Below are positions 7,885-61,735 of a stretch of 64,000 nucleotides of DNA, in pieces. The notes below the pieces were generated by a model. It saw only the letters and a program-made list of their open reading frames with translations, made no database searches and was not told where the DNA came from. Origin of the DNA: a bacterium (GTDB lineage Bacteria; SM23-81; DAOVCL01); contig JAOZPP010000005.1 in the NCBI GenBank assembly GCA_029932675.1, positions 12,423 through 76,422 of the forward strand, written 5' to 3'. The translations under genes were made by a program, and so were the position numbers. The stretch's first letter is position 1; each line of letters starts with the position of its first letter.

Positions 7885-7981
7885 TCGGTAATAACTTTCT
7901 AATTTCCATTTTCGCCTCGATTTGCGGCTTTGCTGCGCTATGTCTATCTGGGTTCATCCGTGGTTGGCTATTATTTGAAAT

Positions 7982-8014: not shown

Positions 8015-8029
8015 TTTTACCCGGATACT

Positions 8030-34405: not shown

Positions 34406-34702
34406 TTGTTATTCAGGCGTTTAGCTCAGAGTGAGATGCCAGAATCGATAAATTTCCCCCGCGGTCTTCCTGAACCAGGAAACATTGACCGAGTGCATGG
34501 TGTAGGACATCAATCCAGTGAGTCGGAGAAGAGGAAGTTCGCCCGGCTCTTGGAAAAGGAGGAAGGTAAAGGGGAGGAGGAGAAGAAGGAGGAACAGGGG
34601 GAAAGGGAGATGCCTTCCCCAGCTTCTGGGAAGGAGAGCTCCTCCCCCAAGGAGAAGCCTTCCCCAAATGGACGAGGTAGGTTCATAGATGTGACCATTT
34701 GA
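34406..34702 (+). CDS. Hypothetical charged/disordered small protein downstream of fliA (start uncertain; TTG 34406 or ATG 34436)
   Basis: Its stop overlaps the start of the next gene (TGATG), suggesting translational coupling. The sequence is Lys/Glu/Ser-rich with no recognisable domain. Confidence 0.3.
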   Translation: MLFRRLAQSEMPESINFPRGLPEPGNIDRVHGVGHQSSESEKRKFARLLEKEEGKGEEEKKEEQGEREMPSPASGKESSSPKEKPSPNGRGRFIDVTI

Positions 34703-35935: not shown

Positions 35936-36796
35936 ATGAAAGGGACTGACCTAAAGGTCATCTCAGGTGATGTTAACCAGATGAGTGGAGAACTAATCTG
36001 TGAGGGTTCCCTTAAGGTGGAGGGGGGGGTGTGCAGTGGGCAACGATTGAGGGTTGCCGGGAACCTTTTGGTGGAAGGGGATATTGAGGATGCTGAGGTA
36101 GAGGTTAAGGGCAAGCTCATCGTCCAGGGGGCGATTACCGGTGATGGTAAGGGCCTGATCACCGCCTATGGGGATATAGAGGCTAAGTATATTAACCGTC
36201 AGACGGTGATGAGTCACTCCTCAGTGAAGGCCAAAGAAGAGATTAGGTATGCTACCGTAAAGGCTGACCAAAGAGTAGTAGTCACCCAAGGGAGGGGTTG
36301 GATAGTGGGGGGGACGGTGACCGCGGGAAAGGAGGTGAGGGCAAGGAATATCGGCAGCCGATATGCCACTCCTACCATTATTAAGGTTGGCCTCGCCCCA
36401 GAGGTATGGGATAAATTGGATGGCTTGAGGAAGAGGATCTATATGAAAGAGAAGATAAGATCTCAGATGGGAAGGGAATTGGCATATCTGCAAGGACTTA
36501 GGGAAAGAGAGGGAGGACTTCCCCCCAAGAAGGAGGAGATCTTCCAGGAGATTGATTTTCTCCATGGGATCTATGGGGATCAACTGAAGAAGATGAGGGA
36601 GGAGTGGGAATTTCTGGAAGAGCACTTGAAGGAGTTAAAAGTGGGGGTAGTCATAGTGGAAGATGTGATTTTCCCTGGTGTAGTCATCAATATTTTGAAC
36701 TCCTGTCGCAAGATAGCGGAGGTGAAAACAGGCGTGGTGTTCAAGAAGGATAAAGATGAGGTAATCGACCTTCCCTTCTCCTCCAAGAAGAGATAG
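35936..36796 (+). CDS. FapA / DUF342-like beta-helix protein (flagellar assembly protein A family) with C-terminal coiled coil
   Basis: Repeating VxGxLxVxGDI...VxGKLIVQGAITGDG... beta-helix units, then a helical region. DUF342 genes are commonly linked to flagellar loci. Confidence 0.45.
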   Translation: MKGTDLKVISGDVNQMSGELICEGSLKVEGGVCSGQRLRVAGNLLVEGDIEDAEVEVKGKLIVQGAITGDGKGLITAYGDIEAKYINRQTVMSHSSVKAKEEIRYATVKADQRVVVTQGRGWIVGGTVTAGKEVRARNIGSRYATPTIIKVGLAPEVWDKLDGLRKRIYMKEKIRSQMGRELAYLQGLREREGGLPPKKEEIFQEIDFLHGIYGDQLKKMREEWEFLEEHLKELKVGVVIVEDVIFPGVVINILNSCRKIAEVKTGVVFKKDKDEVIDLPFSSKKR

Positions 36797-37548
36797 GAGG
36801 TATAAGTGGGTGAAAAACCTCTTATTCCACAGGTGGGTTTCCTTGACTAATGGGTTAAGCTGCTTATCTCCTCGGTCAGTTTGTTGCCAGTATGTCCCTC
36901 TCCTATCATAGGGGTAGCCCTGTTTTTAAAGGAAAGGTAAGGATAGACTGTATTATCTCTCGGAATCTGCCAAAAGGTTCCGAGTTTTTTTATTGTTGGG
37001 AATTTAAATCGACTAATATTTAAGTTAATGCCAAAGCCAATGGAGTAGACTTTCTTTATTTTATATCCTTGATTCTAAATGGGGAGTTTTTAATTTTGGG
37101 GACTGTTAAGTTAGCTGGTGCTGTTTTTTCCTTTGTGAGAATTTTAGCCAATCAATTCTTGATGTTTCAATCCCTGATAGAGAAAGGGGGCAGTGACCAT
37201 TGCAGGGTGAATAGTTGCACCTGTGAAAGATATAAATCGATAAGCATAGAACCAGAGTTTCAGGAAAATATAGGTATTTTGAGGGTTTTTAAACCCCCTG
37301 CATTTGAGCAAGTTTTCTATCCAGTGCTTTGATGACATTTTCTACTCTATTGGTATCTCTCAGCAAGTCTGGGAGAAAGAAAGAGGTTGTCAATAGCTTG
37401 AAGTTCCTCCGCAGCGATCTGATAGTCTCTTCTAATGAATCGACAAGTCAATATTTTTCTCTAAGTATAAGAGATTAAAAAGGAAATCACAAGAAGTAGT
37501 AACAGTTAACTTAACAGTCCCTAATTTTGAAAAAAAATTAAAAAAAAT

Positions 37549-37583
37549 CCTTGACAGTCCTAAAGAGAGGTATTAATATAGCT
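37549..37583 (+). promoter_or_regulatory. Near-consensus sigma-70 promoter for the TBDT/T9SS-cargo block
   Basis: TTGACA - 17 nt - TAATAT (ccTTGACAgtcctaaagagaggtatTAATATagc), about 55 nt upstream of the ATG at 37639 with the AAGGAGGGAG ribosome-binding site. Confidence 0.6.
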
Positions 37584-37638
37584 TGTCCAATTAAGGATTC
37601 TCTATGGATGAGAGGACTAAAGAAAGGAGGGAGAAGAG

Positions 37639-40578
37639 ATGATTAGAATAAAAAGCATAGTTATCTTTGTAGGTGTTTTTATTCCCTTAGTTCTTGCCGT
37701 TTCCCTTTGGGCGGGAACCACGGGCAAGATAGTGGGAACGGTGAGGGATAAAGACACCGGTGCCTCTCTGCCTGGGGTGAATATCGTAATCAGGGGGACG
37801 ACGATGGGTGCGGCCACTAATTTAAAGGGAGAGTACTTTATCATCAATGTGCGGGCTGGCACCTATACTTTGGAAGCTACAATGGTTGGTTATAAAAAGA
37901 TGGTTGTCTCGAATGTGAAGGTATCAGCCGATCTAACTACTACTGTGAACTTTGAGCTTGAACCTACAGTGCTGGAGTTGGGGGAAGTTGTGGAGGTGAC
38001 TGCGGAGAGGAAAATCGTTAGAAAGGATGTGACCTCTTCACAGAGGATAGTTGGCGGGCGGGAGATTCAGGAGATGCCAGTAAGCGATTTTGATGATGTG
38101 GTTGTTCAGCAAGTTGGTGTAGTAGAGACGAACTTAGGGTTATCTGGTGGGGTGCATATCCGTGGCGGTAGAGAAAATGAAACGGCCTATATTGTTGATG
38201 GAGTATATACTAATGATCCATTTACTTCTCAGAGAGGGATATGGCTTGATAACAATGCAATTTCTGAGATGTCAGTTACTACAGGGGGGTTTGATGCTGA
38301 ATATGGGCAGGCTATGTCAGGGGTGGTTAATGTGGTAACTCCAGAGGCGGGAAGGGATTATGGTGGAATGCTGGAGTATACTACAGATAGGCCTCTGAAC
38401 GGTACTGATTATGACAATGACTATGACAATACCTATTTTAGCTTTGGTGGCCCCATACCTTGGTCCCATAGTAAGGCTGGGTTTTTCCTCTCTGGAGCTT
38501 ATTTGGATGTGGGGAACCGGAATCCAATGATCCTGCCCACACCCCGAAATGATGAAATTCACCCCAGTGGGACAGCTAAGATTACTATTAGACCGACTAA
38601 GGCGATTAAGTTAACCCTTAACGGTAACTGGTCCAGACGGAAGTATCATGCTTACTCCACTCAGCAACACCACCGTTCACGTGGGAAATGGTTATATGAG
38701 TGTCCTCTTTACAGGAGGGGAAACAGTCAGGTTAATTTGAAGTTCAACCATACTTTAAGTAAGAATACCTTCTATACAATTAATATGGGGAGATTTAACA
38801 CTTACACCAAATATAGTGCACAAAACGGAAGACATTACCACGATTTTCGGGCGATTGGCCCTGGCCTTAAATGGATGAGTGACCCGATAAAGTATGGCTG
38901 GTATGATCAGGAGTGGGGTACTTGGTTGGAAGGTCTAAACCCAGATTCGGTTTGGTTGGACTATTATAAAAAAGAGATGTATTATTACCAAGATTCGAGT
39001 GGCACCTGGAGGTGGGTCAGTCCTGAACTCCACGCGGAGGCCTTAAATGATCGCTGGTTTGATACGGGTCATTGGATTGTGGACTATTCTGCTCCGGAGT
39101 CGGTGAGGTATGTGCCATTTGATCTGGATGCCTATTTGGAAGATGTGGCCAATTCACCAAATCACCAAAGCGACCTATATCAGGGTGATATAGACAGGTG
39201 GGCTTATCCTTATCCCCGTGATGAGTACCAACAGTTTATATATAACTTCTTCCCAAGATGGCATGATAGAAGGAGTACACATCATTTTTTGGACTTTAAA
39301 TTGGAGAGTCAAGTAGATAAGTACAATTACTTGAAATTTGGGGTTAATGTGAGGAAATATGATTTGGAATTCACTGACATCCAATTTTCCAATTCACGTC
39401 CTTACTCCGATCACTACCACAAAAAACCTTTAGAATTTGCTATTTACTTGCAAGATAAAGTGGAATTCGAGGATCTGGTTTTCAAACCAGGCCTTAGGCT
39501 GGATTACTTCGACCCTGCTTCTCAGCGATACAAAGATTACACCAATGTGGAGCTGGGCAAAGAGGAGGCCAAATCCAGGGTTCAGATAAGTCCCAGAGTA
39601 GGAATTTCCTTCGCTGTAGGCGACAAAACGGTCTTGTATTGTAGCTATGGACACTTCTTTCAGATACCAGATCTAAGTGAGATATATATGGATCTTAACG
39701 CTGATCTAGCCACAGGTTATCCTCTGATTGGAGACCCAGGTTTGCCCCCTAAAAAGACGATTTCCTATGAGATTGGTTTGAAACACGCCTTTACTCCAGA
39801 TGTAAGGGGTGATATCACTGCCTATTATAAGGACGTTCCAGTGCTTTTATCCAGCGAACAGGTGGATACGTATCTGGAAAGGGTTGGTATGCCCGTGCAA
39901 TACACCCGAATGACAACGAATGATTTTGCCACTATTAAGGGGATAGATGTGAGTTTAAGTAAGAGGAGAGGTATATTTACAGGGAAGTTAACTTATTCCT
40001 ACTTGAGTGCTAAGGGGAGCGGTTCTAATGGAAGGGAGTTCTACTACTATTATATGGTGGAAGGCGAACCACGTCCCAAAAGAGAATATCCGTTGGAGTT
40101 TGATATCAATCATACGATTAAGGCGAGCCTGAATATGTATCTAAAAAAGGGATATGGTCCTGCTCTTTGGGGGTTTAAACCTCTCTCTGATTTGAATGCC
40201 AATCTTCAGTTTACCTTCATGTCAGGGGCACCTTATACACCCGTGAATGAGAAGGGCAAGCCAATGGAGATGGGTTCCAAGAAGATGCCCTCATTTCAGA
40301 AAACCGATTTGAAAGTGGAGAAGGGATTTGGATTGGGCGGCAAATATGAATGTAGCTTTTTTATAGATGTGAGGAATCTCTTTGATGTGGAAAACGTTGT
40401 GAACATTTATCGCTCCACAGGTAAACCAGATGATGATTCATATAAGCCTACAAGGGAAAGTTTCTCTTCGGAGGAGGAGTGGAAGAAGGCCGTAGAAGAT
40501 TGGTATAAGTATGTCAAGAATCCCAACAATTATGGGGAGCCTCGAATTATCAAATTGGGATTGAGGTTATCCTTTTAA
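37639..40578 (+). CDS. Large TonB-dependent receptor-like outer-membrane protein (CarboxypepD_reg-like N-domain + plug + barrel, 979 aa)
   Basis: Signal peptide, then GKIVGTVRDKDTGASLPGVNIVIRGT...YTLEATMVGY, then a plug (HIRGGRENETAYIVDGVYTNDPF). It ends in the aromatic residue ...LGLRLSF. Confidence 0.85.
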   Translation: MIRIKSIVIFVGVFIPLVLAVSLWAGTTGKIVGTVRDKDTGASLPGVNIVIRGTTMGAATNLKGEYFIINVRAGTYTLEATMVGYKKMVVSNVKVSADLTTTVNFELEPTVLELGEVVEVTAERKIVRKDVTSSQRIVGGREIQEMPVSDFDDVVVQQVGVVETNLGLSGGVHIRGGRENETAYIVDGVYTNDPFTSQRGIWLDNNAISEMSVTTGGFDAEYGQAMSGVVNVVTPEAGRDYGGMLEYTTDRPLNGTDYDNDYDNTYFSFGGPIPWSHSKAGFFLSGAYLDVGNRNPMILPTPRNDEIHPSGTAKITIRPTKAIKLTLNGNWSRRKYHAYSTQQHHRSRGKWLYECPLYRRGNSQVNLKFNHTLSKNTFYTINMGRFNTYTKYSAQNGRHYHDFRAIGPGLKWMSDPIKYGWYDQEWGTWLEGLNPDSVWLDYYKKEMYYYQDSSGTWRWVSPELHAEALNDRWFDTGHWIVDYSAPESVRYVPFDLDAYLEDVANSPNHQSDLYQGDIDRWAYPYPRDEYQQFIYNFFPRWHDRRSTHHFLDFKLESQVDKYNYLKFGVNVRKYDLEFTDIQFSNSRPYSDHYHKKPLEFAIYLQDKVEFEDLVFKPGLRLDYFDPASQRYKDYTNVELGKEEAKSRVQISPRVGISFAVGDKTVLYCSYGHFFQIPDLSEIYMDLNADLATGYPLIGDPGLPPKKTISYEIGLKHAFTPDVRGDITAYYKDVPVLLSSEQVDTYLERVGMPVQYTRMTTNDFATIKGIDVSLSKRRGIFTGKLTYSYLSAKGSGSNGREFYYYYMVEGEPRPKREYPLEFDINHTIKASLNMYLKKGYGPALWGFKPLSDLNANLQFTFMSGAPYTPVNEKGKPMEMGSKKMPSFQKTDLKVEKGFGLGGKYECSFFIDVRNLFDVENVVNIYRSTGKPDDDSYKPTRESFSSEEEWKKAVEDWYKYVKNPNNYGEPRIIKLGLRLSF

Positions 40579-40714
40579 AGAGCCGTTATCCTTCCTTCCC
40601 CAATAGGGGTATGGATCTGTTTTAACGGGCCCTCAACTCTGAAATTTCTTAGAGATGATTCCCAAATGGCCATTTATGTTCGGTTAAACTGTAAAATGCC
40701 ATAAGGAGGAGAAG

Positions 40715-43700
40715 ATGCATAATAGTATAATCAAAGTTAGTTTATTTACGCTTTTAGGGACTGTTACCCTGTTAGTGGGGAATCCTCATCCAGGGTGGGC
40801 ACGTTGGCAGGATGATTATTATCAAAAATATAAGGAGTTTTTGAGAACAAAGGGGGAAAACTCCGAGAGTAGTGGGTATTATAAGGTAGGTTTCACTACT
40901 GGTGAGATGCCGGACACCTCGATTGGTCCTACCTCACCGATGATTTCTTGGTTGGGGGTAGGTAAACTCTGTGCTATTACGGTAAGTAATACCGCCCAGG
41001 GGGGACTTTTTTCACCTCCAATTGGTTGGAGTGGATACAATGGGAGGTGGCCTACAGGTTACTTTTATGGGGAAGGATTTAATGGGGACTATCCTTGTGG
41101 GCAAAATCAATATTATAATTGGGGATGTGGGGTTTGGATTGGGGGGTTATATCCGAGGATCAATCCAGTCACACAGGAGACCACCTGGGTGCCTAGAGTT
41201 GTTACTGGGGGCTATTACTCTGATCTGTCGGCGATGAGCAAGCTATATGCAACCAATGAGGTGATACCAGCCGGTCAGGAAGGAGCGGGGGATAGGTTGT
41301 TTGCAGACCCCGGGACCACGCCAGCTAGCTATCAGTATCGTTGGGTTTTTGCCGATACTGAGGCTATAAATCCCCGCCGCCGAAAGAATTTTCCTGATCT
41401 GTATGACAGGTTTAGATTAGACCCGGCCAATGGGGATATGGTGGCTATAGAGGAGACTTGGTCTGTGGCGGGGGATTGGGTCTCCGAGGACGAGGCAAGA
41501 ACCCTTTTTACCTTTGGATATGATGGAGATCCACTTGGGGTCAAATTGATCCAGAGGACTTATGATTGGAACTATGGTTATAACGATGATTATATTTACA
41601 TCAACTACCGGATTGTGAATATGAACGAAGTTCCCATAGAGAGCGTTTATGTCGGTTATTTTATGGACAATGACATTGGTGCTTTGGGGATAGAGGCTGC
41701 AGAAGGTAGTAACGACGATTTGGTGGGTTTTGATAAAGAGCTTAACCTGGGTTATACCTATGATTCGAACTTAGGTGAGCCCGGTTGGAAGACACCAGCA
41801 GGCTATATTGGATGTGTCTTCGTGGAAACGCCACGCAGGCCAGATGGGGAACAGATTGGTTTGACTGGTTTTCAGACCTGGACCAGAGAAGGTCCTGAGG
41901 GAAGAACTGTCGATGATCTGGAGGCGGATTGGGCAAAATATGCCGAATTGGATGGCCGTTATTCTAAGACTAAGGAGTGTTATGATCCCGATACTGCCCG
42001 CTTTGAGGTTTTCCAGAAACCTCAGGATGTGCGTCATCTTTCTGCTTCAGGGCCTTATTATCGATTAGAACCTGGGGAGGAGATTTCCTTTACTATTGCC
42101 ATTGTGATGGGGATGAGTTTATCGGAATTGAAGGAAAATACTCTCCAGGCGGTAAAACAGTTTGAGATGGGGTATATTGGTACAGCTCCTCCTCCTCCTC
42201 CTCATTTGACGGTCACTCCTGGTGATCAGAAGGTCTTTCTATCCTGGGATAATTACCCAGAAGATAAGGAGGATATAATTACTGGGGAGAAGGACTTTGA
42301 GGGATACAGAGTTTATAAAAGCACAACTGGTGTTGAAGGTGATTGGACGCTTTTGGCCGACTATGATATTAACTCCGATAGCTTAGGAACCCCAGGTACT
42401 GCAGACAGCACCGGAAATGTAGTTATAGTGAAGTATAAGAGAGGAACTTCTAAACTCAGATTTGGAGCAGGTGGTTTTTACCCACCCATGCTGCCATATT
42501 TTTCGGGCAATGAATATGCTATTGAGTTCCTGACCGATGATTATTTTCAGGTTGAGAATGTGTCCAAGCAGATAACCTATAAATGCAGAAAGCAGTATAA
42601 AGGAGGAGATTATTTTGCAGTTTTGCACGCTGACACAGTGGTAGAGGGGAGCGGTGACACTTTGATTTTTCCGGATACCACCAATTTTTACGATCCGGAT
42701 TTCTCTAATTATCCTCACTCCCTTTTTCATGCTCAATATCATCCGGGGGCTTTTATCTATATGGATGGGTTCTATGTCTATATAGCCAATGGTAAACCCA
42801 GCCCAGATGATCCACCATTGACTAAATATGAACCTCAAAAAGGGGACCTTTTTCGCATCGTTACCAAGGTCAGCACTGATATCGGCCCCCAAAATGGGCT
42901 TCAATATCATTATGTTGATGATGAGGGATTAATCAATGGGATGCCTTATTACTATGCGGTCACCTCATACGATAAAGGTTACCCAGGGATGGAGTTGGAA
43001 CCTTTAGAGAGTGCTAAGATTAAACATTTGGTTATTCCCAGGGCTACTCCTGCTGATGAATATGGTCCATCGGCCAGCTCAATTTCCCATGTCTGGGGTG
43101 TTTGCGAGGGGGAAGTAAGGGTTGAGATTACTAATCCGGAGAAGTTGCAATCTGGAAATTATGAGGTGACTTTCTACCCTGACACTGGCGTCTATGTGCC
43201 AGCTAGTGGGTGGAATCTAACAAATATTACCGATCCTTCTAATCCGGTTCCAGTTTTACAAAACAAGGGGTTGTATGTTAACCCCTTTACCCATCAGAAG
43301 TACGCCAGCTGTGATACCCTAGGGTTCCATATTTCGATAGTTGGACCCGACCGGAATATGGTGATTCCAGACACCTTAATCGATCTGGTTGAGGGAGATA
43401 CTACTATCTATGCAGGGGAATGGAACAATGAATGTTCTTTCAACTTTATTCTCCAAGGGGATCAAGGGGTTGGGCCTTATACTTACGAAATTACCTTTCC
43501 TGATAGCGGATGTATAGATGTGGCTGCTGATTCAATAGTTCCCTGGTGTGTAAGAAATAAAACCTTGGATGAACCGTGCCCTACCTATTATACGGGAAGG
43601 AATGATAATACGATACGTATATTGAAAAGGGATTACAGCGATTTTGGTGATGTCGCTATAGAGATGATTCCAGATTTTCTGCATTTCAAAGACCCAGTTT

Positions 43701-44155
43701 TGGATACCATATTTGGGGTTTATCCGGACAGCAGCGATCCTCCAACTCCTAATGATATCTATACCATTAGAACCCGTAAGACCTTTGCTGGGGGTAGCAA
43801 GGGAGATGTGTTCAGGTTTAGCATTAGGTCTCTAAAGGAGAAAAAACCTGCTTACAATTTGGAGAGGATAAGGGTAGTTCCTAATCCCTACTATATGAAG
43901 GCTGCCTGGGATACGGACAAATACCATCGGAAAATTATGTTTACTCACCTTCCTGCGAAATGCACTATTCGAATTTTCACCGTATCTGGGCTTCTGATCC
44001 GCACCATTAAACACGAAAGCGAAAGTGGTAATGGAGATGAGTTTTGGAATATGACTACAGATGAAAATTTGGATATTATGAGTGGTTTATACATCTACCA
44101 AGTCAAAGCAGAGGATGGGAAAACCAAAGTGGGTAAATTTGCCATTATTCGCTAA
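40715..44155 (+). CDS. Very large secreted protein (1146 aa) with T9SS-type C-terminal sorting domain; function unknown
   Basis: Signal peptide MHNSIIKVSLFTLLGTVTLLVGNPHPGWA. C-terminus RVVPNPYYMKAAWD...CTIRIFTVSGLLIRTI...SGLYIYQVKAEDGKTKVGKFAIIR resembles a Por CTD variant. No catalytic motif was recognised. Confidence 0.7.
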   Translation: MHNSIIKVSLFTLLGTVTLLVGNPHPGWARWQDDYYQKYKEFLRTKGENSESSGYYKVGFTTGEMPDTSIGPTSPMISWLGVGKLCAITVSNTAQGGLFSPPIGWSGYNGRWPTGYFYGEGFNGDYPCGQNQYYNWGCGVWIGGLYPRINPVTQETTWVPRVVTGGYYSDLSAMSKLYATNEVIPAGQEGAGDRLFADPGTTPASYQYRWVFADTEAINPRRRKNFPDLYDRFRLDPANGDMVAIEETWSVAGDWVSEDEARTLFTFGYDGDPLGVKLIQRTYDWNYGYNDDYIYINYRIVNMNEVPIESVYVGYFMDNDIGALGIEAAEGSNDDLVGFDKELNLGYTYDSNLGEPGWKTPAGYIGCVFVETPRRPDGEQIGLTGFQTWTREGPEGRTVDDLEADWAKYAELDGRYSKTKECYDPDTARFEVFQKPQDVRHLSASGPYYRLEPGEEISFTIAIVMGMSLSELKENTLQAVKQFEMGYIGTAPPPPPHLTVTPGDQKVFLSWDNYPEDKEDIITGEKDFEGYRVYKSTTGVEGDWTLLADYDINSDSLGTPGTADSTGNVVIVKYKRGTSKLRFGAGGFYPPMLPYFSGNEYAIEFLTDDYFQVENVSKQITYKCRKQYKGGDYFAVLHADTVVEGSGDTLIFPDTTNFYDPDFSNYPHSLFHAQYHPGAFIYMDGFYVYIANGKPSPDDPPLTKYEPQKGDLFRIVTKVSTDIGPQNGLQYHYVDDEGLINGMPYYYAVTSYDKGYPGMELEPLESAKIKHLVIPRATPADEYGPSASSISHVWGVCEGEVRVEITNPEKLQSGNYEVTFYPDTGVYVPASGWNLTNITDPSNPVPVLQNKGLYVNPFTHQKYASCDTLGFHISIVGPDRNMVIPDTLIDLVEGDTTIYAGEWNNECSFNFILQGDQGVGPYTYEITFPDSGCIDVAADSIVPWCVRNKTLDEPCPTYYTGRNDNTIRILKRDYSDFGDVAIEMIPDFLHFKDPVLDTIFGVYPDSSDPPTPNDIYTIRTRKTFAGGSKGDVFRFSIRSLKEKKPAYNLERIRVVPNPYYMKAAWDTDKYHRKIMFTHLPAKCTIRIFTVSGLLIRTIKHESESGNGDEFWNMTTDENLDIMSGLYIYQVKAEDGKTKVGKFAIIR

Positions 44156-44187
44156 TCTTTGATCTTAACAAAATAGGAGGTGGGGTC

Positions 44188-45159
44188 ATGAAAAGAATGT
44201 TGGCTTTTATACTCTTTTTGCTTTTTGTTCAAGTCTTCATCCCCCAGGTCTCAAAGGCCAGATTAGGGGGGGCAGGTGTGGGGTTCCTCAATTTGGGGGG
44301 GGGGAGTAGGGGTATAGCTTTAGGGGGAGCGTACAGTGCTCCAGCAGAAGGGTTAGAGGCTATCTATTGGAATCCTGCGGGATTGGCCTATATGGAGAGG
44401 ACGAGTGTCTCTTTCACCCATGGTCAACTTTACGCCGATCTCAAAAATGAGAATGTCGCTTTTGCTATGCCCTTGGGAGGAGGTGTATTGGGATTTAGTG
44501 GATATGCCCTTCTATCTGGAAAGATAGAGAAGACCACCATAGAAGATCAGGACGGCACAGGGGAATTTTATACCGCTAATGATTTCGCCGGTGGCATATC
44601 TTACGCCCGTATGATGACCGACAAATTCGCTTTTGGTTTAACAGTCAAACTAATTGACGCAAATATAGACAAATGTTCAGCTATTGCTTGGGCCTTTGAT
44701 ATAGGGGGGACCTATAACACCGGTTTTAGGAATTTGCGGTTGGGATTCGTTATACGCAATTTTGGGCCAGATACCCATTATGAGGGGGAGAATTTGCAAT
44801 ATCTCGAAAACGAGTATTTGAAGGCTACTTACCGTTCCGATCCCTTCCCCTTGCCAATGAGCTTTCAAATGGGCTTTGCCTATGATGTTATTAACTCTAA
44901 GGATAACAAAATAACTGCGCTTGTCGATTTAGTTCATCCGATTGATCAGGACGAAACGATTGCTGGGGGGATCGAATATTGGTTGAGGGACACATATGCC
45001 TTAAGGGTAGGTTATTCTGAAGAAAACAATAGAGGATTGCGTGGGGGGGTGGGAGTGAAACTCTCTTTGGGGACGATCAAAACAAATATCGATTACAGCT
45101 ATGAGTTTCATCAATATCTTGATGGGATTCAACGTTTTACAATTGAGTTTACATATTGA
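44188..45159 (+). CDS. Outer-membrane beta-barrel protein, PorV / UPF0164 (FadL-like) family-like
   Basis: Signal peptide, then GIALGGAYSAPAEGLEAIYWNPAGLA (the hallmark N-terminal motif of the UPF0164/PorV-type barrels). It ends ...FTIEFTY, aromatic, and lies between two T9SS cargo genes. Confidence 0.5.
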   Translation: MKRMLAFILFLLFVQVFIPQVSKARLGGAGVGFLNLGGGSRGIALGGAYSAPAEGLEAIYWNPAGLAYMERTSVSFTHGQLYADLKNENVAFAMPLGGGVLGFSGYALLSGKIEKTTIEDQDGTGEFYTANDFAGGISYARMMTDKFAFGLTVKLIDANIDKCSAIAWAFDIGGTYNTGFRNLRLGFVIRNFGPDTHYEGENLQYLENEYLKATYRSDPFPLPMSFQMGFAYDVINSKDNKITALVDLVHPIDQDETIAGGIEYWLRDTYALRVGYSEENNRGLRGGVGVKLSLGTIKTNIDYSYEFHQYLDGIQRFTIEFTY

Positions 45160-45271
45160 AAGGATTTGATGGCACACTAACTAACAATTGAGGTTTAAGG
45201 TGAAATGGGGAAGGAGGTGATGTTTATTGGAAAGAAAGTATAGATAGTATATGGTGCTTATAACCTTTTGA

Positions 45272-47596
45272 ATGAAATATAAGGAGGGTAAGGAAATGAA
45301 GAAAGGCATGTTGTTTTTTAGTGTGGGAGTGGTGATTTTTATATTGGGTAATTACGTCTTTGCTGGAAATAACTTCCCGGGAAAGGGTGTGGCCCCTGTT
45401 CAGGGTTTACCATTCTTAGAAAAGCCAGGCCCCTTGGCTACAAAGCCCACTGTGTCATTATCCAAAGAGGGGGTGAAGAGCCTCTCCTTTGTGGATAGTC
45501 ATGGACAGCAGCATTGTATGGTCTTTGATCCATCGGGTAAGAGGAAAAGTGTGATCGATACTTTGAAGTGGTATGTGGGGGAACCTTATGATTGTAACGA
45601 CTATACAGGAGCCCTGGATACTAGTTTTATCTGGTTCTATCCAGCAGCTCGCTGTTCCCTTTTGGAAGTGTGGGGTAACTTTCACGACCGGGCTGTAGAG
45701 GGTAGCCAGAAGATTTCCATCGCTGGCCTATGCTTTGAGGAACGGGGGGATGCTTGCACTGATACTTGTTGTCCCATGTGGATTCATGTATCCGAGGATG
45801 AGAGTGATACTTTTGCCATCTCCCTCACGGATAACCTATTACCGTGGGAGCTTCTCTGGTCTGTAAACGGTGGTGATACTTGGTCCAAGAAGGACTTTAC
45901 TGAATACCCTCCTGGGTTTGTTCTCGAATTGCCTCCAGATACTGCCTTCTTTGTGATATTGAGGGCCAGCTCTGGCGGTGGGCAACCTCACATCAATTGG
46001 GATGACTGTAATGGTTTCACCAGGCAGTGTGAGCCCCGATGTGCCCACTGGTATTTTACCTATCAGCACGCAACCCATGGAAGTCGTTATTGTCCAGGGG
46101 TCTCTTGTCAATCCCACTACTATGTCTATTATGCAACTGAACCATGGAGTTATCCAGAGCTTCTGGTTAAGGCTGTAGTTAGCTACCAATCAGTTCCCCC
46201 TTTCATCGATTCCTTGACTCAGCTAATGGATAACTACTATCCGGAGGAGAGTTTTGAGGTTAAAGCGGGAATGAGGGATTTGGATGGAGAGGTTACCGAA
46301 GCTATCCTTCACTTTACAGTGAGAAACTCTGGTGATACCACCAACTTGTCTATGGACATTGTGCCTGATCCTCACTGTCCCACTGGATTTATAGGCACTG
46401 CTGACATCAGCGGTTCCTTCTCATTTTTGGATACTGTTGATTATTGGGTCACTTGTAAGGATAACGATGAGAAGGCGGGGATATGGCGTGGCCAGGGTGA
46501 CGGTGTTCAGTCCTTCGTCTTCCAAAAGCCAAACCTCAAAGCGGATATTTTCTTAGCCAATGATATGGGTGGGGACAGGGGTATCTATTATCGTGCACTT
46601 CTGGATAGCCTTGGTTATGAGTATGAATACTGGGATCTCACTAAGAGTCATGGGTTGGATGAAACTATATTAGGCTATGGGAGATGGAATACGGTGATAC
46701 TATTCGGTTGGGGTTGTAGCACATTGCCAGGAAAGGATCCCACCGGAAGTATGTGGGCCAATTTCTTGGACCAAGGTACCCTAGACACCACAAGGAACAT
46801 CCTCTATGTAGATCAGGACTACTTCTGTGTGCACGATGATAGTTTGGACTACCCTGATGGATGTGGCTTTGAGGGGAATTTAAGCGCGGGTGAGTTCTTA
46901 TACGACTATTTTGGGGTGGGTTGGGCCAAGAGCGATCCAGAGGAGCAGGACACCCTCTTTATTGGTTTAGATGCACAATTAGTGGGGTCTTATGTGGGGG
47001 AGATTTTCGCGCTGAATACGGACCACGTAGGGATAACTCCTTGGCCAGATTACACCAGGGCCAATAGTCAAGCCACTGATATCTTTCAAGCTGTTTATGG
47101 GGAAGAGCCATGTGGCACCAGATATAATGGTGGGAACTTCAAGACCGTTTTTCTTCCTTTCCCCTTTGAGGCCTTATGTGATTATGATACTCTAAACCAG
47201 GAACCTGTTCTTACCGATAAGGCCTTGACCGTGATGGATAGTATTCTGTCGTGGTTTGGGACTCGGGATTCAATCCCTGAAGGTATTCAGCAGCTCCCTG
47301 ATGGGGGAGAGTTGCCGAGGGTCTTTACCCTCTCCCAGAACTACCCCAATCCATTCAACCCAGTGACCAGCATAGAGTATACAGTTCCCAAATCTGCTGA
47401 GGTGAGCCTGAAGGTCTATAACGTTCTGGGCCAGGAGGTGAAGACCTTGGTGGACCTGCGGCAGAATGCAGGTAGGTATCGGGCCACTTGGAATGGGGAG
47501 GATAGTCACGGCCAGAAGGTCTCCAGCGGTATCTACTTCTATCAGTTGAAGGCGGGAGACGTCTCGTTAGTGCGCAGGATGATCCTCTTGAAGTAG
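45272..47596 (+). CDS. Cys-rich secreted protein (774 aa) with canonical T9SS C-terminal sorting domain
   Basis: Signal peptide (MKKGMLFFSVGVVIFILGNYVFA). Many Cys, including CC and CxxC pairs. C-terminus VFTLSQNYPNPFNPVTSIEYTV...VYNVLGQEVKTLVD...GIYFYQLKAGDVSLVRRMILLK. Confidence 0.8.
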   Translation: MKYKEGKEMKKGMLFFSVGVVIFILGNYVFAGNNFPGKGVAPVQGLPFLEKPGPLATKPTVSLSKEGVKSLSFVDSHGQQHCMVFDPSGKRKSVIDTLKWYVGEPYDCNDYTGALDTSFIWFYPAARCSLLEVWGNFHDRAVEGSQKISIAGLCFEERGDACTDTCCPMWIHVSEDESDTFAISLTDNLLPWELLWSVNGGDTWSKKDFTEYPPGFVLELPPDTAFFVILRASSGGGQPHINWDDCNGFTRQCEPRCAHWYFTYQHATHGSRYCPGVSCQSHYYVYYATEPWSYPELLVKAVVSYQSVPPFIDSLTQLMDNYYPEESFEVKAGMRDLDGEVTEAILHFTVRNSGDTTNLSMDIVPDPHCPTGFIGTADISGSFSFLDTVDYWVTCKDNDEKAGIWRGQGDGVQSFVFQKPNLKADIFLANDMGGDRGIYYRALLDSLGYEYEYWDLTKSHGLDETILGYGRWNTVILFGWGCSTLPGKDPTGSMWANFLDQGTLDTTRNILYVDQDYFCVHDDSLDYPDGCGFEGNLSAGEFLYDYFGVGWAKSDPEEQDTLFIGLDAQLVGSYVGEIFALNTDHVGITPWPDYTRANSQATDIFQAVYGEEPCGTRYNGGNFKTVFLPFPFEALCDYDTLNQEPVLTDKALTVMDSILSWFGTRDSIPEGIQQLPDGGELPRVFTLSQNYPNPFNPVTSIEYTVPKSAEVSLKVYNVLGQEVKTLVDLRQNAGRYRATWNGEDSHGQKVSSGIYFYQLKAGDVSLVRRMILLK

Positions 47597-47616
47597 GTCT
47601 TGTAATTTGGTAATGG

Positions 47617-47660
47617 AAAAAAGGCTGTCTGGGCAGAATGCCCAGACAGCCTTTTATTTT
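47617..47660. terminator. Bidirectional rho-independent terminator between convergent genes
   Basis: aaaaaaGGCTGTCTGGGCAgaaTGCCCAGACAGCCttttatttt: a 13-bp perfect stem flanked by A-run and T-run. Confidence 0.85.
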
Positions 47661-47687: not shown

Positions 47688-48800
47688 CTAAACCTTAATC
47701 AATTCATATCCTCTCTTCCCCAATCCCAAGCCTTCCCCATAACTAAGCTGAATGGTGTAGTCGATCTCTGGATAGATATCCTTGATCTTATCATCTCCGG
47801 GGTTGAAACTCCTCTGGAGGGCAGAGTTTTTTAGCCCCGGGCTTTGGTTGAGGAGGTCAACCGAGGCCTGGTCGATAGCTATGGGGTCTGGAGAGGCCAG
47901 GATACCGATATCGGGGACTAAAGGGGCGTCTGAACGGTCAAAGCAATCACAATCAGGGGTTATGTTCAAAAGAAAGTTGATATAGCCTACTCTCCCACCC
48001 TTTCCCCTGGTCACCGCCCAAAGGTATTCCACCATCCTCTCCTGGAGCTCCCTACTCGCTGCATCCCACTTCACCCTGATCGCCCCTGTGGGGCAGCTTG
48101 GGATACACTCACCACACCCAGTACATTTCTCTCCCACAATGTAAGCCTTTCCCTCCCTGAGCTCTATGGCCTGGGGGAGGCAGTAGGGGCGACATCTTTC
48201 ACAGCCCGTGCATCTCTCCTCCTTTATGAAAGGACGAAAGTTGGAGTGCTGAGCTAACTTACCAGCTATACTGGCACAGCCCATACCAATGTTTTTAATC
48301 GCCCCTCCAAATCCCGTCGCTAAGTGGAGCTTGAAGTGGGCAACCCCAATTAAGGAATCAGCATAAGCGATATCGGAGCCAATGTAGGCCTTTTTTATAT
48401 GTTTCCCCTCTATCTCCACCTCTTGGAAGGATTGTCCCCGCAGCCCATCGCCGATAAGCAAAGGCGCCCCCGTGACTACTTGATTAAATCCATGTTCTGC
48501 GGCCAGGAGGAGGTGGTCGTAGGAATTTGAGCGAGAGCCAGGATAGAGGGTGTTGGTGTCTACCAAGAACGGTTTCCCTCCCGCCTCCTTTACCTTCTCC
48601 ACAATGGGCCTGAGGAAGATCGGCCGGATGAAACCTGAGCCTCCTCTCTCCCCGAAGTGGAGTTTCACCGCGGTCAGCCCATCTTTCTCCACTATCCTCC
48701 CTAAGCCCGCTCGATCGAAGAGACGGCTGAGCTTCTGGAATAGGTTTGTGCCTGACCTTGTCCGCAGGTCGGTAAAGTAGACCTTGCTCTTGGTTTCCAT
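47688..48800 (-). CDS. DUF362 domain protein with 2x[4Fe-4S] ferredoxin motif
   Basis: CTGCERCRPYC...CTGCGECIPSCP ferredoxin motifs within a DUF362-like scaffold. Confidence 0.75.
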   Translation of the reverse strand: METKSKVYFTDLRTRSGTNLFQKLSRLFDRAGLGRIVEKDGLTAVKLHFGERGGSGFIRPIFLRPIVEKVKEAGGKPFLVDTNTLYPGSRSNSYDHLLLAAEHGFNQVVTGAPLLIGDGLRGQSFQEVEIEGKHIKKAYIGSDIAYADSLIGVAHFKLHLATGFGGAIKNIGMGCASIAGKLAQHSNFRPFIKEERCTGCERCRPYCLPQAIELREGKAYIVGEKCTGCGECIPSCPTGAIRVKWDAASRELQERMVEYLWAVTRGKGGRVGYINFLLNITPDCDCFDRSDAPLVPDIGILASPDPIAIDQASVDLLNQSPGLKNSALQRSFNPGDDKIKDIYPEIDYTIQLSYGEGLGLGKRGYELIKV

Positions 48801-61308: not shown

Positions 61309-61323
61309 CTAAAAAGCCTCCTT

Positions 61324-61725: not shown

Positions 61726-61735
61726 AGTTTCTCCT

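What the first reader, a model, noticed from the sequence alone, without database searches (positions are those of the whole stretch)
36797..47660. Low-GC (~35-42% vs ~52%) 10.8-kb block: AT-rich 840-nt leader, giant TBDT-like barrel, 1146-aa T9SS cargo, PorV/UPF0164-like barrel, Cys-rich T9SS cargo, perfect terminator
The composition shifts abruptly at ~36.8 kb and returns after the bidirectional terminator at 47.6 kb. This is consistent with a horizontally acquired island. The gene content resembles a PUL-like surface nutrient-acquisition or adhesion module. Here both partners of the outer-membrane barrel are T9SS cargo, and a PorV-like shuttle barrel is encoded in cis. Neither large protein has a recognisable catalytic motif by eye, so their function is open.
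Basis: partly seen in the sequence, partly recalled or inferred. Interest (0 to 1): 0.65.

Follow-up and report, generated by a model that had tools for sequence, protein, structure and literature searches.

The report
Conserved transporter operon with private PorV-like anchor
The low-GC block is one operon encoding a TonB-dependent outer-membrane transporter, a large unknown surface protein with an unusual type IX secretion tail, a private PorV-like barrel that probably holds that protein, and a second secreted protein; the arrangement recurs unannotated across many bacterial phyla and is an old resident of this genome, not a recent import.

Summary
The four ORFs, the composition shift and the terminator are real, but the numbers were overstated. 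The block is 44.2% GC against 51.3% elsewhere; only the spacer is about 37%. GC3 is 0.42-0.52 against 0.61±0.04, and the tetranucleotide signature is also atypical.

The "840-nt leader" is an upstream terminator, a MITE-like repeat and a conserved sigma-70 promoter with a short UTR.

The block is not a recent island. Two relatives carry it at the same site beside the same flanking genes. Synonymous divergence of cluster and flanks is equal (dS about 1.2-1.5). The GC3 offset persists in all three lineages, and one relative has swapped the whole cassette in place.

The order TBDT, ~1100-aa protein, PorV/PorQ-family barrel is conserved in at least 537 loci from about ten FCB-group phyla. Barrel linkage is 62/62 for proteins with the family's divergent CTD and 0/7 for paralogs with a canonical CTD. 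Adjacent genes vary between loci: starch-binding modules, GH9, GH3, M6 and S8 peptidases.

Best reading: a PUL-like import machine whose surface partner is exported by the T9SS and docked on a private barrel. I found no description of it in the literature. Physical docking, import direction and substrate are inferred.

The parts
36959..36994 (+). Intrinsic terminator ending the upstream flagellar operon (after the FapA gene 35936-36796)
   Evidence: 10-bp stem, 6-nt loop, followed by TTTTTTTATT.
37087..37533 (.). MITE-like element bounded by 43-nt imperfect inverted repeats; it accounts for much of the AT-rich 'leader'
   Evidence: Arms 37087-37129 and 37491-37533 are 77% complementary, with a perfect 15-nt core GGGACTGTTAAGTTA found only at these two places (0.07 expected). 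The stretch 37430-37533 recurs at 84-86% identity, with paired arms about 340 nt apart, in otherwise unrelated metagenome contigs L092 and L093. There is no Rfam match.
37533..37579 (+). Promoter of the operon: A-tract, -35 TTGACA (37551-37556), 17-nt spacer, -10 TAATAT (37574-37579)
   Evidence: Best sigma-70 match in the region, 10 of 12. It is the only part of the spacer conserved with the relative L018 (window 37530-37590 against L018 4669-4729, 78% over 63 nt), although the downstream proteins are only about 50% identical.
37625..37633 (+). Shine-Dalgarno sequence AGGAGGGAG, about 6-8 nt before the ATG at 37639
   Evidence: Read directly from the sequence.
37639..40578 (+). TonB-dependent transporter, 979 aa: signal peptide, CarboxypepD_reg N-terminal extension (residues 31-118), TonB-box-like EVVEVTAER (residues 116-124, nt 37984-38010), plug, 22-strand-type barrel
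   Evidence: PF13715 72.9 bits, PF07715 37.6, PF00593 79.7. Fails SusC/RagA TIGR04056 (52 against 368). The xVVxVTAERP motif is conserved in the TBDTs of 20 related loci. GC3 is 0.452.
40715..44155 (+). 1146-aa secreted all-beta protein of an unannotated family: N-terminal head (residues about 77-490), PPPPP linker, FN3-like and further beta-sandwich domains, divergent T9SS-type CTD (residues about 1050-1146, nt 43862-44152)
   Evidence: No Pfam family matches in 24 members and no PDB relative is found by profile. AlphaFold2 gives pLDDT 82.4 and pTM 0.69, with a 7-strand C-terminal sandwich. The top Foldseek PDB hit is PorZ, and the head resembles GH94/GH116-type sandwich domains. The CTD is homologous to a type A CTD (hhalign 97%, E 9e-11) but its first ~28 residues are not alignable. 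The family has 6,339 cluster representatives at E<=1e-10. It has a Sec signal peptide and no lipobox.
44188..45159 (+). PorV/PorQ-family outer-membrane barrel, 323 aa; proposed private shuttle or anchor for the 1146-aa protein
   Evidence: NF033709 197.4 bits (cutoff 90). Below the equivalog cutoffs for PorQ (89 against 220), PorV (77 against 250) and PorV2 (66 against 325). Its only PDB relative is F. johnsoniae PorV 6h3i_F, E 1e-8. It lies downstream of every family member that carries the family CTD, 62 of 62, and of none of 7 paralogs with a canonical CTD.
45272..47596 (+). 774-aa canonical type A T9SS cargo of unknown fold (database start at 45296 gives 766 aa); CTD at residues 691-771 (nt 47342-47584); frequent fourth member of the module
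   Evidence: TIGR04183 40.2 bits (cutoff 23) and PF18962 30.2 (cutoff 27). A full-length homolog follows the barrel in 12 of 30 loci. All 24 family members have PF18962 and nothing else. The AlphaFold2 model failed, with pLDDT 31 outside the CTD.
47619..47655 (.). Bidirectional intrinsic terminator shared with the convergent DUF362 gene (47688-48800, minus strand)
   Evidence: 17-bp perfect stem, 3-nt loop, A-run upstream and T-run downstream; dG -34.8 kcal/mol, z -7.07, 0 of 200 shuffles as stable.

Best explanation
WHAT IT IS. The block is a single operon, running from the promoter at 37551-37579 to the terminator at 47619-47655. It encodes a four-protein outer-membrane module: (1) a TonB-dependent transporter; (2) an ~1100-aa all-beta protein whose C-terminal domain is a divergent derivative of the type IX secretion (T9SS) sorting domain; (3) a private PorV/PorQ-family barrel; and (4) a second protein with a canonical T9SS tail.

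PROPOSED MECHANISM. All four proteins cross the inner membrane by the Sec pathway. The T9SS exports proteins 2 and 4. Protein 2 is not released. It stays docked by its retained C-terminal domain on the private barrel, as PorZ does on PorQ, which places its variable N-terminal head at the cell surface next to or over the transporter. The head, helped by protein 4 and in other lineages by adjacent T9SS-secreted hydrolases, captures a polymer or its fragments. The transporter imports these using the Ton system encoded 13 kb away. Functionally this is a PUL-like or BtuBG-like capped transporter in which T9SS docking replaces a lipid anchor.

COMPOSITION. The low GC is a long-standing property of this locus and not a mark of recent arrival. 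The cluster co-diverged with its flanks since the split from relatives (dS about 1.3). It keeps a roughly constant GC3 offset of -0.13 to -0.20 in three lineages. The locus is a site of whole-cassette exchange in a sister lineage.

SHOWN: operon signals, domain identities, deep synteny, the CTD-barrel association statistics, vertical co-divergence, and the cassette swap.
INFERRED: T9SS export of protein 2, CTD retention on the barrel, contact with the transporter, import direction, substrate, and the cause of the GC3 offset.
For: OPERON. One conserved promoter and one strong terminator bracket four co-directional genes with gaps of 136, 32 and 112 nt.

MODULE CONSERVATION. At least 537 loci in GTDB species representatives encode a relative. 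They come from Gemmatimonadota, Zixibacteria, Eisenbacteria, Fermentibacteria, Calditrichota, WOR-3, Marinimicrobia, Stahlbacteria, KSB1, Latescibacterota, Ignavibacteria/Melioribacter and Bacteroidota. A TBDT lies directly upstream in 37/38 and 20/21 loci; both filter misses show a TBDT in the raw table. The barrel lies directly downstream in 38/38 and 24/24. Flanking contexts are unrelated between lineages.

BARREL TRACKS THE CTD. Seven paralogs with the same N-terminal head but a canonical PF18962 CTD have no barrel (0/7) and a TBDT in only 1/7. The superfamily's conserved core is the C-terminal ~400 positions plus the CTD. The CTD is homologous to type A but divergent.

PRECEDENT. PorZ keeps its CTD and is held by PorQ, and cognate PorV-like barrels are hypothesised to protect CTDs (PMC10202324). 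Type B CTD cargo need genetically linked PorP/SprF barrels (PMC12618676). The top structural hit of the model is PorZ.

IMPORT AND PUL LOGIC. The TonB-box-like motif is conserved. ExbB, ExbD (two copies) and TonB are in the window. Neighbours of the triad include 21/94 T9SS-CTD proteins, CBM20/CBM48 starch binders (M. roseus L073, L081), GH9 (L083), GH3 (L060), M6 (L015) and S8 (L030) peptidases, TonB_C and Opp ABC components. Several genomes hold multiple or tandem triads.

INDEPENDENT IN-WINDOW PARALLEL. A cobalamin-riboswitch operon pairs a BtuB-like TBDT with BtuG-like beta-propellers (E 6e-10 to BtuG1, 8BLW chain B) that lack a lipobox and end in T9SS CTDs.

LOCUS HISTORY.. Internal control for composition.
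Against: 1. No experiment or complex prediction shows that the 1146-aa protein binds the barrel or the transporter. AlphaFold-Multimer was not available.
2. The CTD could simply use a dedicated shuttle and then be cleaved.
3. No ligand-binding or catalytic motif was identified in either large protein. The head's resemblance to GH94/GH116 sandwich domains is weak (TM 0.15-0.19 on the whole model).
4. The fold of the 774-aa protein is unknown.
5. A TBDT with the same N-terminal architecture (Oar) is needed for protein export, not import (PMC6434023).
6. SusCD tandems exist in Gemmatimonadetes and Ignavibacteriae (PMC5753385), so there is no obvious need for an alternative system.
7. T9SS core genes were not seen in the 64-kb window. 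Their presence in the host is inferred from the many CTD proteins and from the literature.
8. The cause of the persistent GC3 offset is unexplained.
Confidence: 0.55

Rival explanations
1. Recently acquired genomic island: the block was inserted into this genome by horizontal transfer from a lower-GC donor and has not yet ameliorated.
For: GC3 is 4-5 SD below the rest of the window and the tetranucleotide signature is atypical. In 37 other lineages the homologous cluster shows no such dip (+0.021±0.035). Three other T9SS-CTD genes in the same window have normal GC3, so the dip is locus-specific. The left flank is not shared with the relative L018.
Against: The block sits at the same chromosomal site, next to the same six or more flanking genes, in two relatives. 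Cluster dS equals flank dS between the window and L088/L004. The closest cluster homologs are those of the host's own relatives (75-83%), not a foreign phylum. There is no integrase, tRNA or direct repeat at the borders.
Confidence: 0.05
2. Ancient transfer with incomplete amelioration, or repeated cassette exchange from a lower-GC gene pool, explains the composition. This concerns the locus history only and is compatible with any function.
For: Whole-cassette replacement at this site is documented in L085. Flank dS is 0.66-1.04 against cluster dS above 1.9, and dN is 0.29-0.58 against 0.07-0.10. The L085 cassette has a different protein length (970 aa) and an extra 153-aa gene. The replaced cassette is also low in GC3. 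Other T9SS cargo genes of that MAG are low in GC3. Very AT-rich versions of the cluster exist, for example in Marinimicrobia with GC3 about 0.2.
Against: The offset is nearly the same (-0.17, -0.20, -0.13) in three lineages whose host GC3 differs (0.61, 0.71, 0.64). After dS of about 1.3 this looks stationary, not decaying. No donor lineage can be named.
Confidence: 0.3
3. Oar-like TonB-dependent export: the transporter moves a protein outward (the 1146-aa or the 774-aa protein, or another), and the PorV-like barrel receives it. The triad would then be a secretion and anchoring device and not an importer.
For: The TBDT has the Oar-subclass architecture: CarboxypepD_reg extension, plug, TonB box. 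[quoted passage not shown] A SurA-like periplasmic chaperone gene lies next to the triad in 12 of 94 neighbours surveyed.
Against: The same N-terminal extension occurs in SusC-type importers and in the window's own BtuB-like TBDT. The cargo carry T9SS-type CTDs, for which a dedicated translocon is known. A folded 120-kDa multi-domain protein is an unlikely passenger for a 22-strand barrel. Neighbouring hydrolases and binding modules fit nutrient capture.
Confidence: 0.07
4. Housekeeping T9SS attachment machinery: the 1146-aa protein and its barrel are the PorZ-PorQ (or PorU-PorV) equivalents of these phyla and serve general cargo processing.
For: The top PDB structural hit is PorZ (E 5.6e-9). 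The CTD's best NCBIfam matches are the C-termini of PorZ and PorU. The barrel belongs to the PorV/PorQ family.
Against: No sequence relation to PorZ exists outside the CTD. The family has no invariant Cys/His dyad as in PorU. The barrel fails the PorQ and PorV equivalog cutoffs. Triads occur in several copies per genome and in tandem, are hypervariable and swapped as cassettes, and are always tied to a TBDT, which the attachment complex is not.
Confidence: 0.06
5. Surface coat or adhesin locus: the large proteins are structural or adhesive surface antigens under diversifying selection (for example from phage or grazers), and the transporter is incidental or acts as a receptor platform.
For: The large protein is all-beta and multi-domain, with FN3-like modules. 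The cluster diverges fast and is exchanged as a cassette at a conserved site. Low GC at a conserved, exchangeable surface locus recalls O-antigen and capsule loci (my general knowledge, not tested here).
Against: The strict, phylum-spanning linkage to a TBDT with a conserved TonB box and to hydrolases and binding modules is not expected for a pure coat or adhesin.
Confidence: 0.1

Closest known systems
Lipoprotein-capped TonB-dependent transporters of Bacteroidota (SusC/SusD PULs, RagAB, BtuB-BtuG)
   Same: A TBDT with an N-terminal CarboxypepD_reg-type extension is co-encoded with surface-exposed partner proteins. Variable substrate-specific enzymes or binding proteins lie next to a conserved transport core. 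Several loci occur per genome.
   Different: There is no SusD-like or lipoprotein partner. All four proteins have plain Sec signal peptides without a lipobox. The partner carries a T9SS-type CTD and has its own barrel. The TBDT fails the SusC/RagA model (52 against 368 bits). PMC10404256 states that lipoprotein-capped TBDTs seem exclusive to Bacteroidetes.
PorZ-PorQ and PorU-PorV pairs of the T9SS attachment complex (Porphyromonas gingivalis)
   Same: A CTD protein is kept at the surface because its CTD is retained and bound by a PorV-family barrel (PMC10202324). The barrel here is a full-length NF033709 PorV/PorQ-family member. PorZ is the top structural hit.
   Different: The barrel is neither a PorQ nor a PorV equivalog. 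The large protein is unrelated in sequence to PorZ or PorU outside the CTD. The genes are adjacent, multi-copy, hypervariable, and always follow a TBDT. Retention of the CTD is not shown here.
Type B CTD cargo with cognate PorP/SprF-like shuttle barrels (Flavobacterium johnsoniae, for example SprB-SprF)
   Same: A non-standard CTD is genetically linked to a dedicated barrel that handles only that cargo (PMC12618676; PMC9143113, title listed).
   Different: The CTD here derives from type A (hhalign 97% to a type A CTD family), and the barrel is PorV/PorQ family, not PorP/SprF. Linkage to a TBDT is not part of the type B paradigm.
Oar-subclass TonB-dependent transporters (Myxococcus xanthus Oar)
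   Same: Signal peptide, CarboxypepD_reg N-terminal extension, plug with TonB box, and a large barrel.
   Different: Oar acts in protein export without T9SS-type partners. No direct sequence comparison with Oar was made here, and the context here points to import.
Hypervariable surface-polysaccharide loci (O-antigen and capsule clusters) as a compositional analogue
   Same: Low GC relative to the genome, a fixed chromosomal position between conserved flanking genes, and replacement of the whole cassette between related lineages. The comparison itself rests on my general knowledge.
   Different: These loci encode sugar-synthesis enzymes, not outer-membrane proteins. The analogy concerns population genetics only.

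Membership tests
TonB-dependent transporter | Plug domain (PF07715) and 22-strand barrel domain (PF00593) above the curated cutoffs | tested here: met
   Plug 37.6 bits (cutoff 23.9); barrel 79.7 bits (cutoff 27).
TonB-dependent transporter | TonB box between the N-terminal extension and the plug | tested here: met
   EVVEVTAER at residues 116-124. The consensus V.AERP is conserved in 20 related loci. Its identity as a TonB box rests on resemblance to the DTLVVTA type (general knowledge).
SusC/RagA-type TBDT (TIGR04056) | Whole-protein score above 368 bits | tested here: not met
   52.2 bits, N-terminal region only.
Polysaccharide utilization locus in the PULDB sense | Adjacent susC and susD homologs | tested here: not met
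   There is no SusD-like protein. The gene after the TBDT has no Pfam or NCBIfam family. PULDB defines PULs by the susCD tandem (PMC5753385).
PorV/PorQ family (NF033709) | Score above 90 bits over the full model | tested here: met
   197.4 bits, model positions 3-325 of 326. The only PDB relative is PorV 6h3i_F, E 1e-8.
PorV equivalog (NF033710) / PorQ equivalog (NF033711) / PorV2 (NF052325) | Scores above 250 / 220 / 325 bits | tested here: not met
   77.1, 89.4 and 66.5 bits. The barrel is a separate subfamily.
T9SS type A CTD cargo (TIGR04183 / PF18962): the 774-aa protein | C-terminal sorting domain above the curated cutoffs, plus an N-terminal signal peptide | tested here: met
   40.2 bits (cutoff 23) and 30.2 bits (cutoff 27). 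All 24 family members match PF18962. The signal peptide is visible.
T9SS type A CTD cargo: the 1146-aa protein | C-terminal sorting domain above the curated cutoffs | tested here: not met
   TIGR04183 scores 18.1 bits against 23, and there is no PF18962 hit in the window protein or in P0001-P0101. The domain is nevertheless homologous to type A (hhalign 97%, E 9e-11 over beta3-beta6) and is predicted as a 7-strand sandwich. It is a divergent subtype.
T9SS cargo (any type) | Export depends on the T9SS translocon of the host | not testable with these tools
   No T9SS core gene lies in the window. Presence of the system is inferred from five CTD proteins in the window and from the literature on FCB phyla (PMC11285876).
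PorZ-PorQ-like retained-CTD anchor pair | The CTD is not cleaved and binds the barrel | not testable with these tools
   The evidence is indirect only: 62/62 against 0/7 linkage of the barrel with the CTD subtype.
Genomic island (recent horizontal acquisition) | Atypical composition | tested here: met
   GC3 is 0.17 below the flanks; tetranucleotide z = +4.3 and -8.
Genomic island (recent horizontal acquisition) | Absent from the same site in related genomes | tested here: not met
   The cluster is present at the same site in L085/L018 and L088. Cluster dS equals flank dS.
Genomic island (recent horizontal acquisition) | Mobility genes, tRNA target or flanking direct repeats | tested here: not met
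   There is no other ORF of 80 aa or more apart from antisense ones, no tRNA in the window, and no boundary repeat pair. The MITE-like element lies inside the spacer and does not bracket the block.

The most novel reading that the evidence does not exclude
The transporter and the private PorV-like barrel together form a self-contained, TonB-energised route that exports and docks the divergent-CTD protein independently of the SprA/Sov translocon. This would be an Oar-like secretion device that has recruited a T9SS-type signal and shuttle, and therefore a new outer-membrane protein export pathway spread across the FCB superphylum.
Probability: 0.07. Interest if true: 0.9.

Novelty: new variant of a known kind. 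Interest (0 to 1): 0.68.

Why it matters
**Two systems joined.** Capped TonB-dependent transporters are the core of nutrient capture in Bacteroidota, and they are thought to depend on surface lipoproteins. This locus suggests that a much wider set of FCB-group phyla equips transporters with surface partners by a different route: T9SS export followed by docking of a specialised sorting domain on a private PorV-like barrel. Most of these phyla are uncultured and are abundant in sediments, oceans and bioreactors. If the model is right, it links two systems that have been studied separately.

**What it would explain.**
- It gives a function to a subfamily of PorV/PorQ paralogs.
- It gives a function to a protein superfamily of thousands of members that currently has no annotation.
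- It extends the known PorZ-PorQ principle of a retained CTD on a barrel into nutrient uptake.

**Testability.** The model can be tested directly in cultured carriers (Melioribacter roseus, Rosettibacter primus, Caldithrix).

**Methodological lesson.** A strong, locus-specific compositional anomaly can persist at a vertically inherited site, so low GC alone does not date an acquisition.

Tried and rejected
With the permitted six close sequences it failed (pLDDT 31), so no fold search was run on it.
3. Exact look-ups of the window's 1146-aa protein found no record. The source assembly could not be named beyond an NCBI MAG contig of 77,234 nt and Logan run SRR21545388.
4. The spacer as a riboswitch or leader RNA: no Rfam hit better than E = 0.14.
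5. The spacer as a decayed gene: no tblastx match to any fetched locus and no match to the rest of the window.
6. Boundary direct repeats or att-like sites: none found.
7. [quoted passage not shown]: rejected, because GC2 is equal and the window's other TBDT has GC3 of 0.61.
8. "Low GC3 is intrinsic to the module": rejected, because 37 other lineages average +0.02.
9. "Low GC3 is a class property of T9SS cargo": I first favoured this. I then rejected it for this genome, because three other CTD genes in the window have GC3 of 0.59-0.64.
10. Membership in SusC/RagA, and identity as a PorV, PorQ or PorV2 equivalog: rejected on curated cutoffs.
11. Profile searches of both large families against PDB sequences and Pfam: nothing outside the CTD.
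12. Seven literature searches for a description of the triad found none. The library lacks most subscription journals, so this is not proof of absence.

Full report
**1. Observation**

The window is about 51% GC. The block 36797-47660 is 44.2% against 51.3% for the rest, and the non-coding spacer 36797-37638 is 37%. The four ORFs are exactly as described.

The shift is a synonymous-site effect. GC3 is 0.45, 0.42, 0.44 and 0.52 for the four genes, against 0.612±0.039 for 44 other ORFs, and GC2 is unchanged. The GC-normalised tetranucleotide signature is also deviant: delta* is 0.222 against 0.126±0.022, and r is 0.83 against 0.96±0.016. The terminator at 47619-47655 is a perfect 17-bp hairpin between convergent genes (dG -34.8 kcal/mol, z -7).

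**2. The "leader"**

The 842-nt spacer is not a leader. It contains four things.
- An intrinsic terminator for the upstream flagellar operon (36959-36984 plus a T-run). The upstream genes are FliF, FliK, FlgE, FliM, FlhB, FlhA, FlhF, FlhG, a FliA-like sigma factor and FapA.
- A 447-nt element bounded by 43-nt inverted repeats (37087-37533). Its right ~104 nt recur at 84-86% identity, with their own paired arms, in unrelated metagenome contigs. This marks it as a MITE-like repeat family.
- A promoter consisting of an A-tract and TTGACA-17-TAATAT (37551-37579). It is the only spacer segment conserved in the relative L018 (78% over 63 nt), although the downstream proteins are only about 50% identical.
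- A strong Shine-Dalgarno sequence.

There is no Rfam match. The four genes therefore form one transcription unit with a 5' UTR of about 55 nt.

**3. The proteins**

*Gene 1* is a TonB-dependent transporter. It has a CarboxypepD_reg N-terminal extension, a plug and a barrel, and a conserved TonB-box-like EVVEVTAER motif. It is not a SusC/RagA member.

*Gene 2* (1146 aa) has no Pfam or NCBIfam family and no PDB relative by profile. AlphaFold2 with 73 homologs gives a confident model (pLDDT 82, pTM 0.69). The model is all-beta and multi-domain: a head at about residues 77-490, a poly-proline linker, an FN3-like domain and further sandwiches, and a 7-strand C-terminal sandwich. Foldseek against the PDB puts PorZ first. 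After that come the sandwich domains of GH94/GH116-type enzymes matching the head, with low global TM scores as expected for a multi-domain query. The C-terminal domain scores below the type A CTD cutoffs (18.1 against 23 bits). It is nevertheless homologous to a type A CTD by profile-profile comparison (97%, E 9e-11), except for its first ~28 residues.

*Gene 3* is a full-length PorV/PorQ-family barrel (197 bits against a cutoff of 90). It is neither a PorV, a PorQ nor a PorV2 equivalog. Its only PDB relative is F. johnsoniae PorV.

*Gene 4* (774 aa) has a canonical type A CTD. The remaining ~640 residues match nothing, and its structure prediction failed.

All four proteins have Sec signal peptides and none has a lipobox.

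**4. Comparative genomics of the module**

The 1146-aa protein belongs to a large family in which every member is called "hypothetical". An exhaustive profile search finds 6,339 cluster representatives at E<=1e-10. Most of them share only the C-terminal ~400 profile positions plus the CTD, under different N-terminal heads.

A scan of GTDB species representatives found at least 537 loci. They come from Gemmatimonadota, Zixibacteria, Eisenbacteria, Fermentibacteria, Calditrichota, WOR-3, Marinimicrobia, Stahlbacteria, KSB1, Latescibacterota, Ignavibacteria/Melioribacter (including cultured M. roseus and Rosettibacter primus) and Bacteroidota.

Synteny was scored in the 80 loci fetched.

| Protein class | TBDT directly upstream | PorV-like barrel directly downstream |
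|---|---|---|
| Full-length members | 37/38 | 38/38 |
| Members sharing only the C-terminal part | 20/21 | 24/24 |
| Paralogs with the same head but a canonical PF18962 CTD | 1/7 | 0/7 |

Both TBDT misses are filter artefacts, because one search shows a TBDT upstream in those loci. A full-length homolog of gene 4 follows the barrel in 12/30 loci. The wider contexts differ completely between lineages. The key point is in the last row: barrel linkage follows the C-terminal module and CTD subtype, not the head.

**5. Function**

The neighbours of the triad across lineages look like a PUL entourage. Of 94 flanking proteins, 21 have T9SS CTDs. Others are CBM20/CBM48 starch-binding proteins, M6 peptidases, TonB and Opp ABC components.

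Directly after the triad:
- M. roseus encodes a CBM48/CBM20/pullulanase-X25 protein with a CTD.
- Rosettibacter encodes a CBM20 protein with a CTD.
- Two Calditrichia encode a GH9 cellulase with a CTD and a GH3 glycosidase.
- Caldithrix encodes an M6 peptidase with a CTD.
- Another MAG (L030) encodes an S8 subtilase with a CTD.

Several genomes have two or tandem triads. The window itself encodes ExbB, two ExbD-like proteins and TonB.

The same window holds an independent parallel. A cobalamin riboswitch precedes an operon with a BtuB-like TBDT and beta-propellers. One propeller matches BtuG1 (8BLW chain B, E 6e-10), BtuG2 and BtuG3. These propellers lack a lipobox and end in canonical T9SS CTDs. 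In Bacteroides, BtuG is a lipoprotein lid on BtuB, and such capped transporters were thought to be exclusive to Bacteroidetes (PMC10404256). In this lineage, then, transporter partners appear to be delivered by the T9SS.

For gene 2 the closest mechanistic precedents are PorZ, whose retained CTD binds PorQ, and type B cargo with their cognate PorP/SprF barrels (PMC10202324; PMC12618676).

I therefore propose the following. The T9SS exports genes 2 and 4. Gene 2 stays docked by its divergent CTD on the private barrel beside the transporter and presents a variable capture head. The transporter imports the captured substrate. Docking, contact with the transporter, import direction and substrate are all inferred. 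The substrate of the window's own copy is unknown. The head's sandwich fold hints at a glycan, but only weakly.

**6. History and composition**

Homologous clusters in 37 other lineages show no GC3 dip relative to their flanks (+0.021±0.035; examples), so the dip is not intrinsic to the module.

The block is nevertheless not a recent insertion. The Gemmatimonadota MAG GCA_964626665.1 (L085, the same contig as L018) and JGI contig L088 carry the cluster at the same site, next to DUF362, a CDP-alcohol phosphatidyltransferase, a RecN-like protein, NAD kinase, Lactamase_B and FtsX/MacB genes.

| Comparison | Flank identity | Cluster identity | Flank dS | Cluster dS |
|---|---|---|---|---|
| L085 vs L088 | 82-87% | 44-64% | 0.66-1.04 | >1.9 |
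| Window vs L085 | 74-81% | 43-58% | 0.85-1.64 | 2.25 to saturated |
| Window vs L088/L004 | 70-78% | 75-83% | 0.9-1.6 | 1.2-1.5 |

Identities are and dS values. The flanks give the tree ((L085, L088), window), while the cluster proteins give ((window, L088/L004), L085). Between the window and L088/L004, cluster and flank dS are equal, so cluster and flanks co-diverged vertically. Between L085 and L088, cluster dN is 0.29-0.58 against flank dN of 0.07-0.10. The L085 cassette also has a shorter second protein (970 aa) and an extra 153-aa gene. This is a whole-cassette replacement in situ in the L085 lineage.

The GC3 offset is about the same in all three lineages (-0.17, -0.20, -0.13), while the absolute values follow the host.

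I first thought low GC3 might be a class property of T9SS cargo, because other cargo genes of the L085 genome are low. The window's three other CTD genes have normal GC3, however, so in this genome the effect is locus-specific. The cause remains open. It could be an ancient transfer, a circulating lower-GC cassette pool, or a local selective or mutational bias.

There are no mobility genes, no tRNA and no boundary repeats. The left flank is not shared with L018, so a rearrangement breakpoint lies at the left border.

**7. Comparison with known systems and novelty**

The module works like a capped TBDT (SusCD, RagAB, BtuBG), but it fails the defining susCD test and the SusC model. Its anchor logic resembles PorZ-PorQ and the type B/PorP pairs, but the barrel and CTD are of a different subtype and are tied to a transporter. 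The TBDT shares its architecture with Oar, which exports a protein (PMC6434023), and this remains a minor rival.

SusCD tandems also occur in Gemmatimonadetes and Ignavibacteriae (PMC5753385), and M. roseus has SusCDE (PMC3534657). The triad is therefore an additional system and not a replacement.

Seven full-text searches found no description of the triad. The library is incomplete, so this is not proof of absence. I rate the finding a new variant of a known kind.

**8. Verdict**

- Observation: partly confirmed.
- Island interpretation: partly supported. Composition is atypical and the locus is exchangeable, but it is anciently resident here.
- PUL-like interpretation: supported by context.

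The main value lies in the FCB-wide, unannotated triad of transporter, divergent-CTD protein and private barrel, and in the hint that T9SS docking substitutes for lipid anchoring of transporter partners outside the classical Bacteroidota. That hint is reinforced by the BtuG-CTD operon in the same window.

Noticed in passing
window 999-8280 (minus strand): A cobalamin riboswitch (8056-8280) lies upstream of an operon: a 327-aa CTD protein (6628-7611), a 462-aa YncE/BtuG-like beta-propeller with a T9SS CTD (5057-6445; E 6e-10 to BtuG1, 8BLW chain B), a BtuB-like TBDT (2805-5045), and a 484-aa DUF5074/YncE-like propeller with a CTD (999-2453). The propellers have no lipobox. This looks like a B12 uptake system whose BtuG-type lids are delivered by the T9SS and not as lipoproteins. 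Capped TBDTs of this kind were thought to be exclusive to Bacteroidetes.
   Followed up: partly
window 37087-37533: A 447-nt MITE-like element with 43-nt imperfect terminal inverted repeats sits just upstream of the operon's promoter. Related copies with paired arms about 340 nt apart occur in metagenome contigs L092 and L093, and single arms occur in L090 and L091. These contigs come from the same JGI sample series (Ga03155xx) as the relative L086.
   Followed up: partly
L085 11143-20935 / L018 4780-14572: In the Gemmatimonadota MAG GCA_964626665.1 the whole four-gene cassette at the orthologous site is a divergent allele (43-64% identity against 82-87% for the flanks). Its large protein is shorter (970 aa) and there is an extra 153-aa gene with a lipoprotein-like N-terminus. 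This is an in-situ cassette replacement.
   Followed up: yes
L040 1596-12953 and L046 3286-13611: The same MAG has arrays of T9SS cargo genes: three tandem paralogs of the 774-aa protein, plus ~900-aa paralogs that carry the head domain of the 1146-aa family with a canonical CTD. No TBDT or barrel is nearby. Most have depressed GC3 (0.42-0.57).
   Followed up: partly
window 60257-62386 (minus strand): A complete Ton energising system: ExbB (61736-62386), two ExbD-like proteins (61324-61725 and 60886-61308, recognised by eye from the ASMADIAFL motif) and TonB (60257-60889). It lies under a second mild GC dip (0.46), but its genes have near-normal GC3 (0.57-0.58).
   Followed up: partly
window 20213-21736 (+): A 507-aa NHL-repeat, Big_9 and PKD-like beta-propeller protein is embedded in the flagellar gene cluster between FlgE and downstream flagellar genes. 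This is an unusual passenger for such a cluster.
   Followed up: no
loci L065, L068, L069, L071-L073, L075-L078, L081, L084 (gene directly upstream of the TBDT): In the Ignavibacteria/Melioribacter-type loci a ~560-aa SurA-like PPIase (PF13616/PF00639) lies immediately upstream of the triad (12 of 94 neighbours surveyed). This could be phylogenetic inertia, or a dedicated periplasmic chaperone for the module.
   Followed up: no
window 15118-16872 and 34699-35838 (+): The flagellar region contains two FliK-like hook-length-control proteins: a 584-aa protein with a strong Flg_hook match and a 379-aa protein with a weak, below-cutoff match.
   Followed up: no
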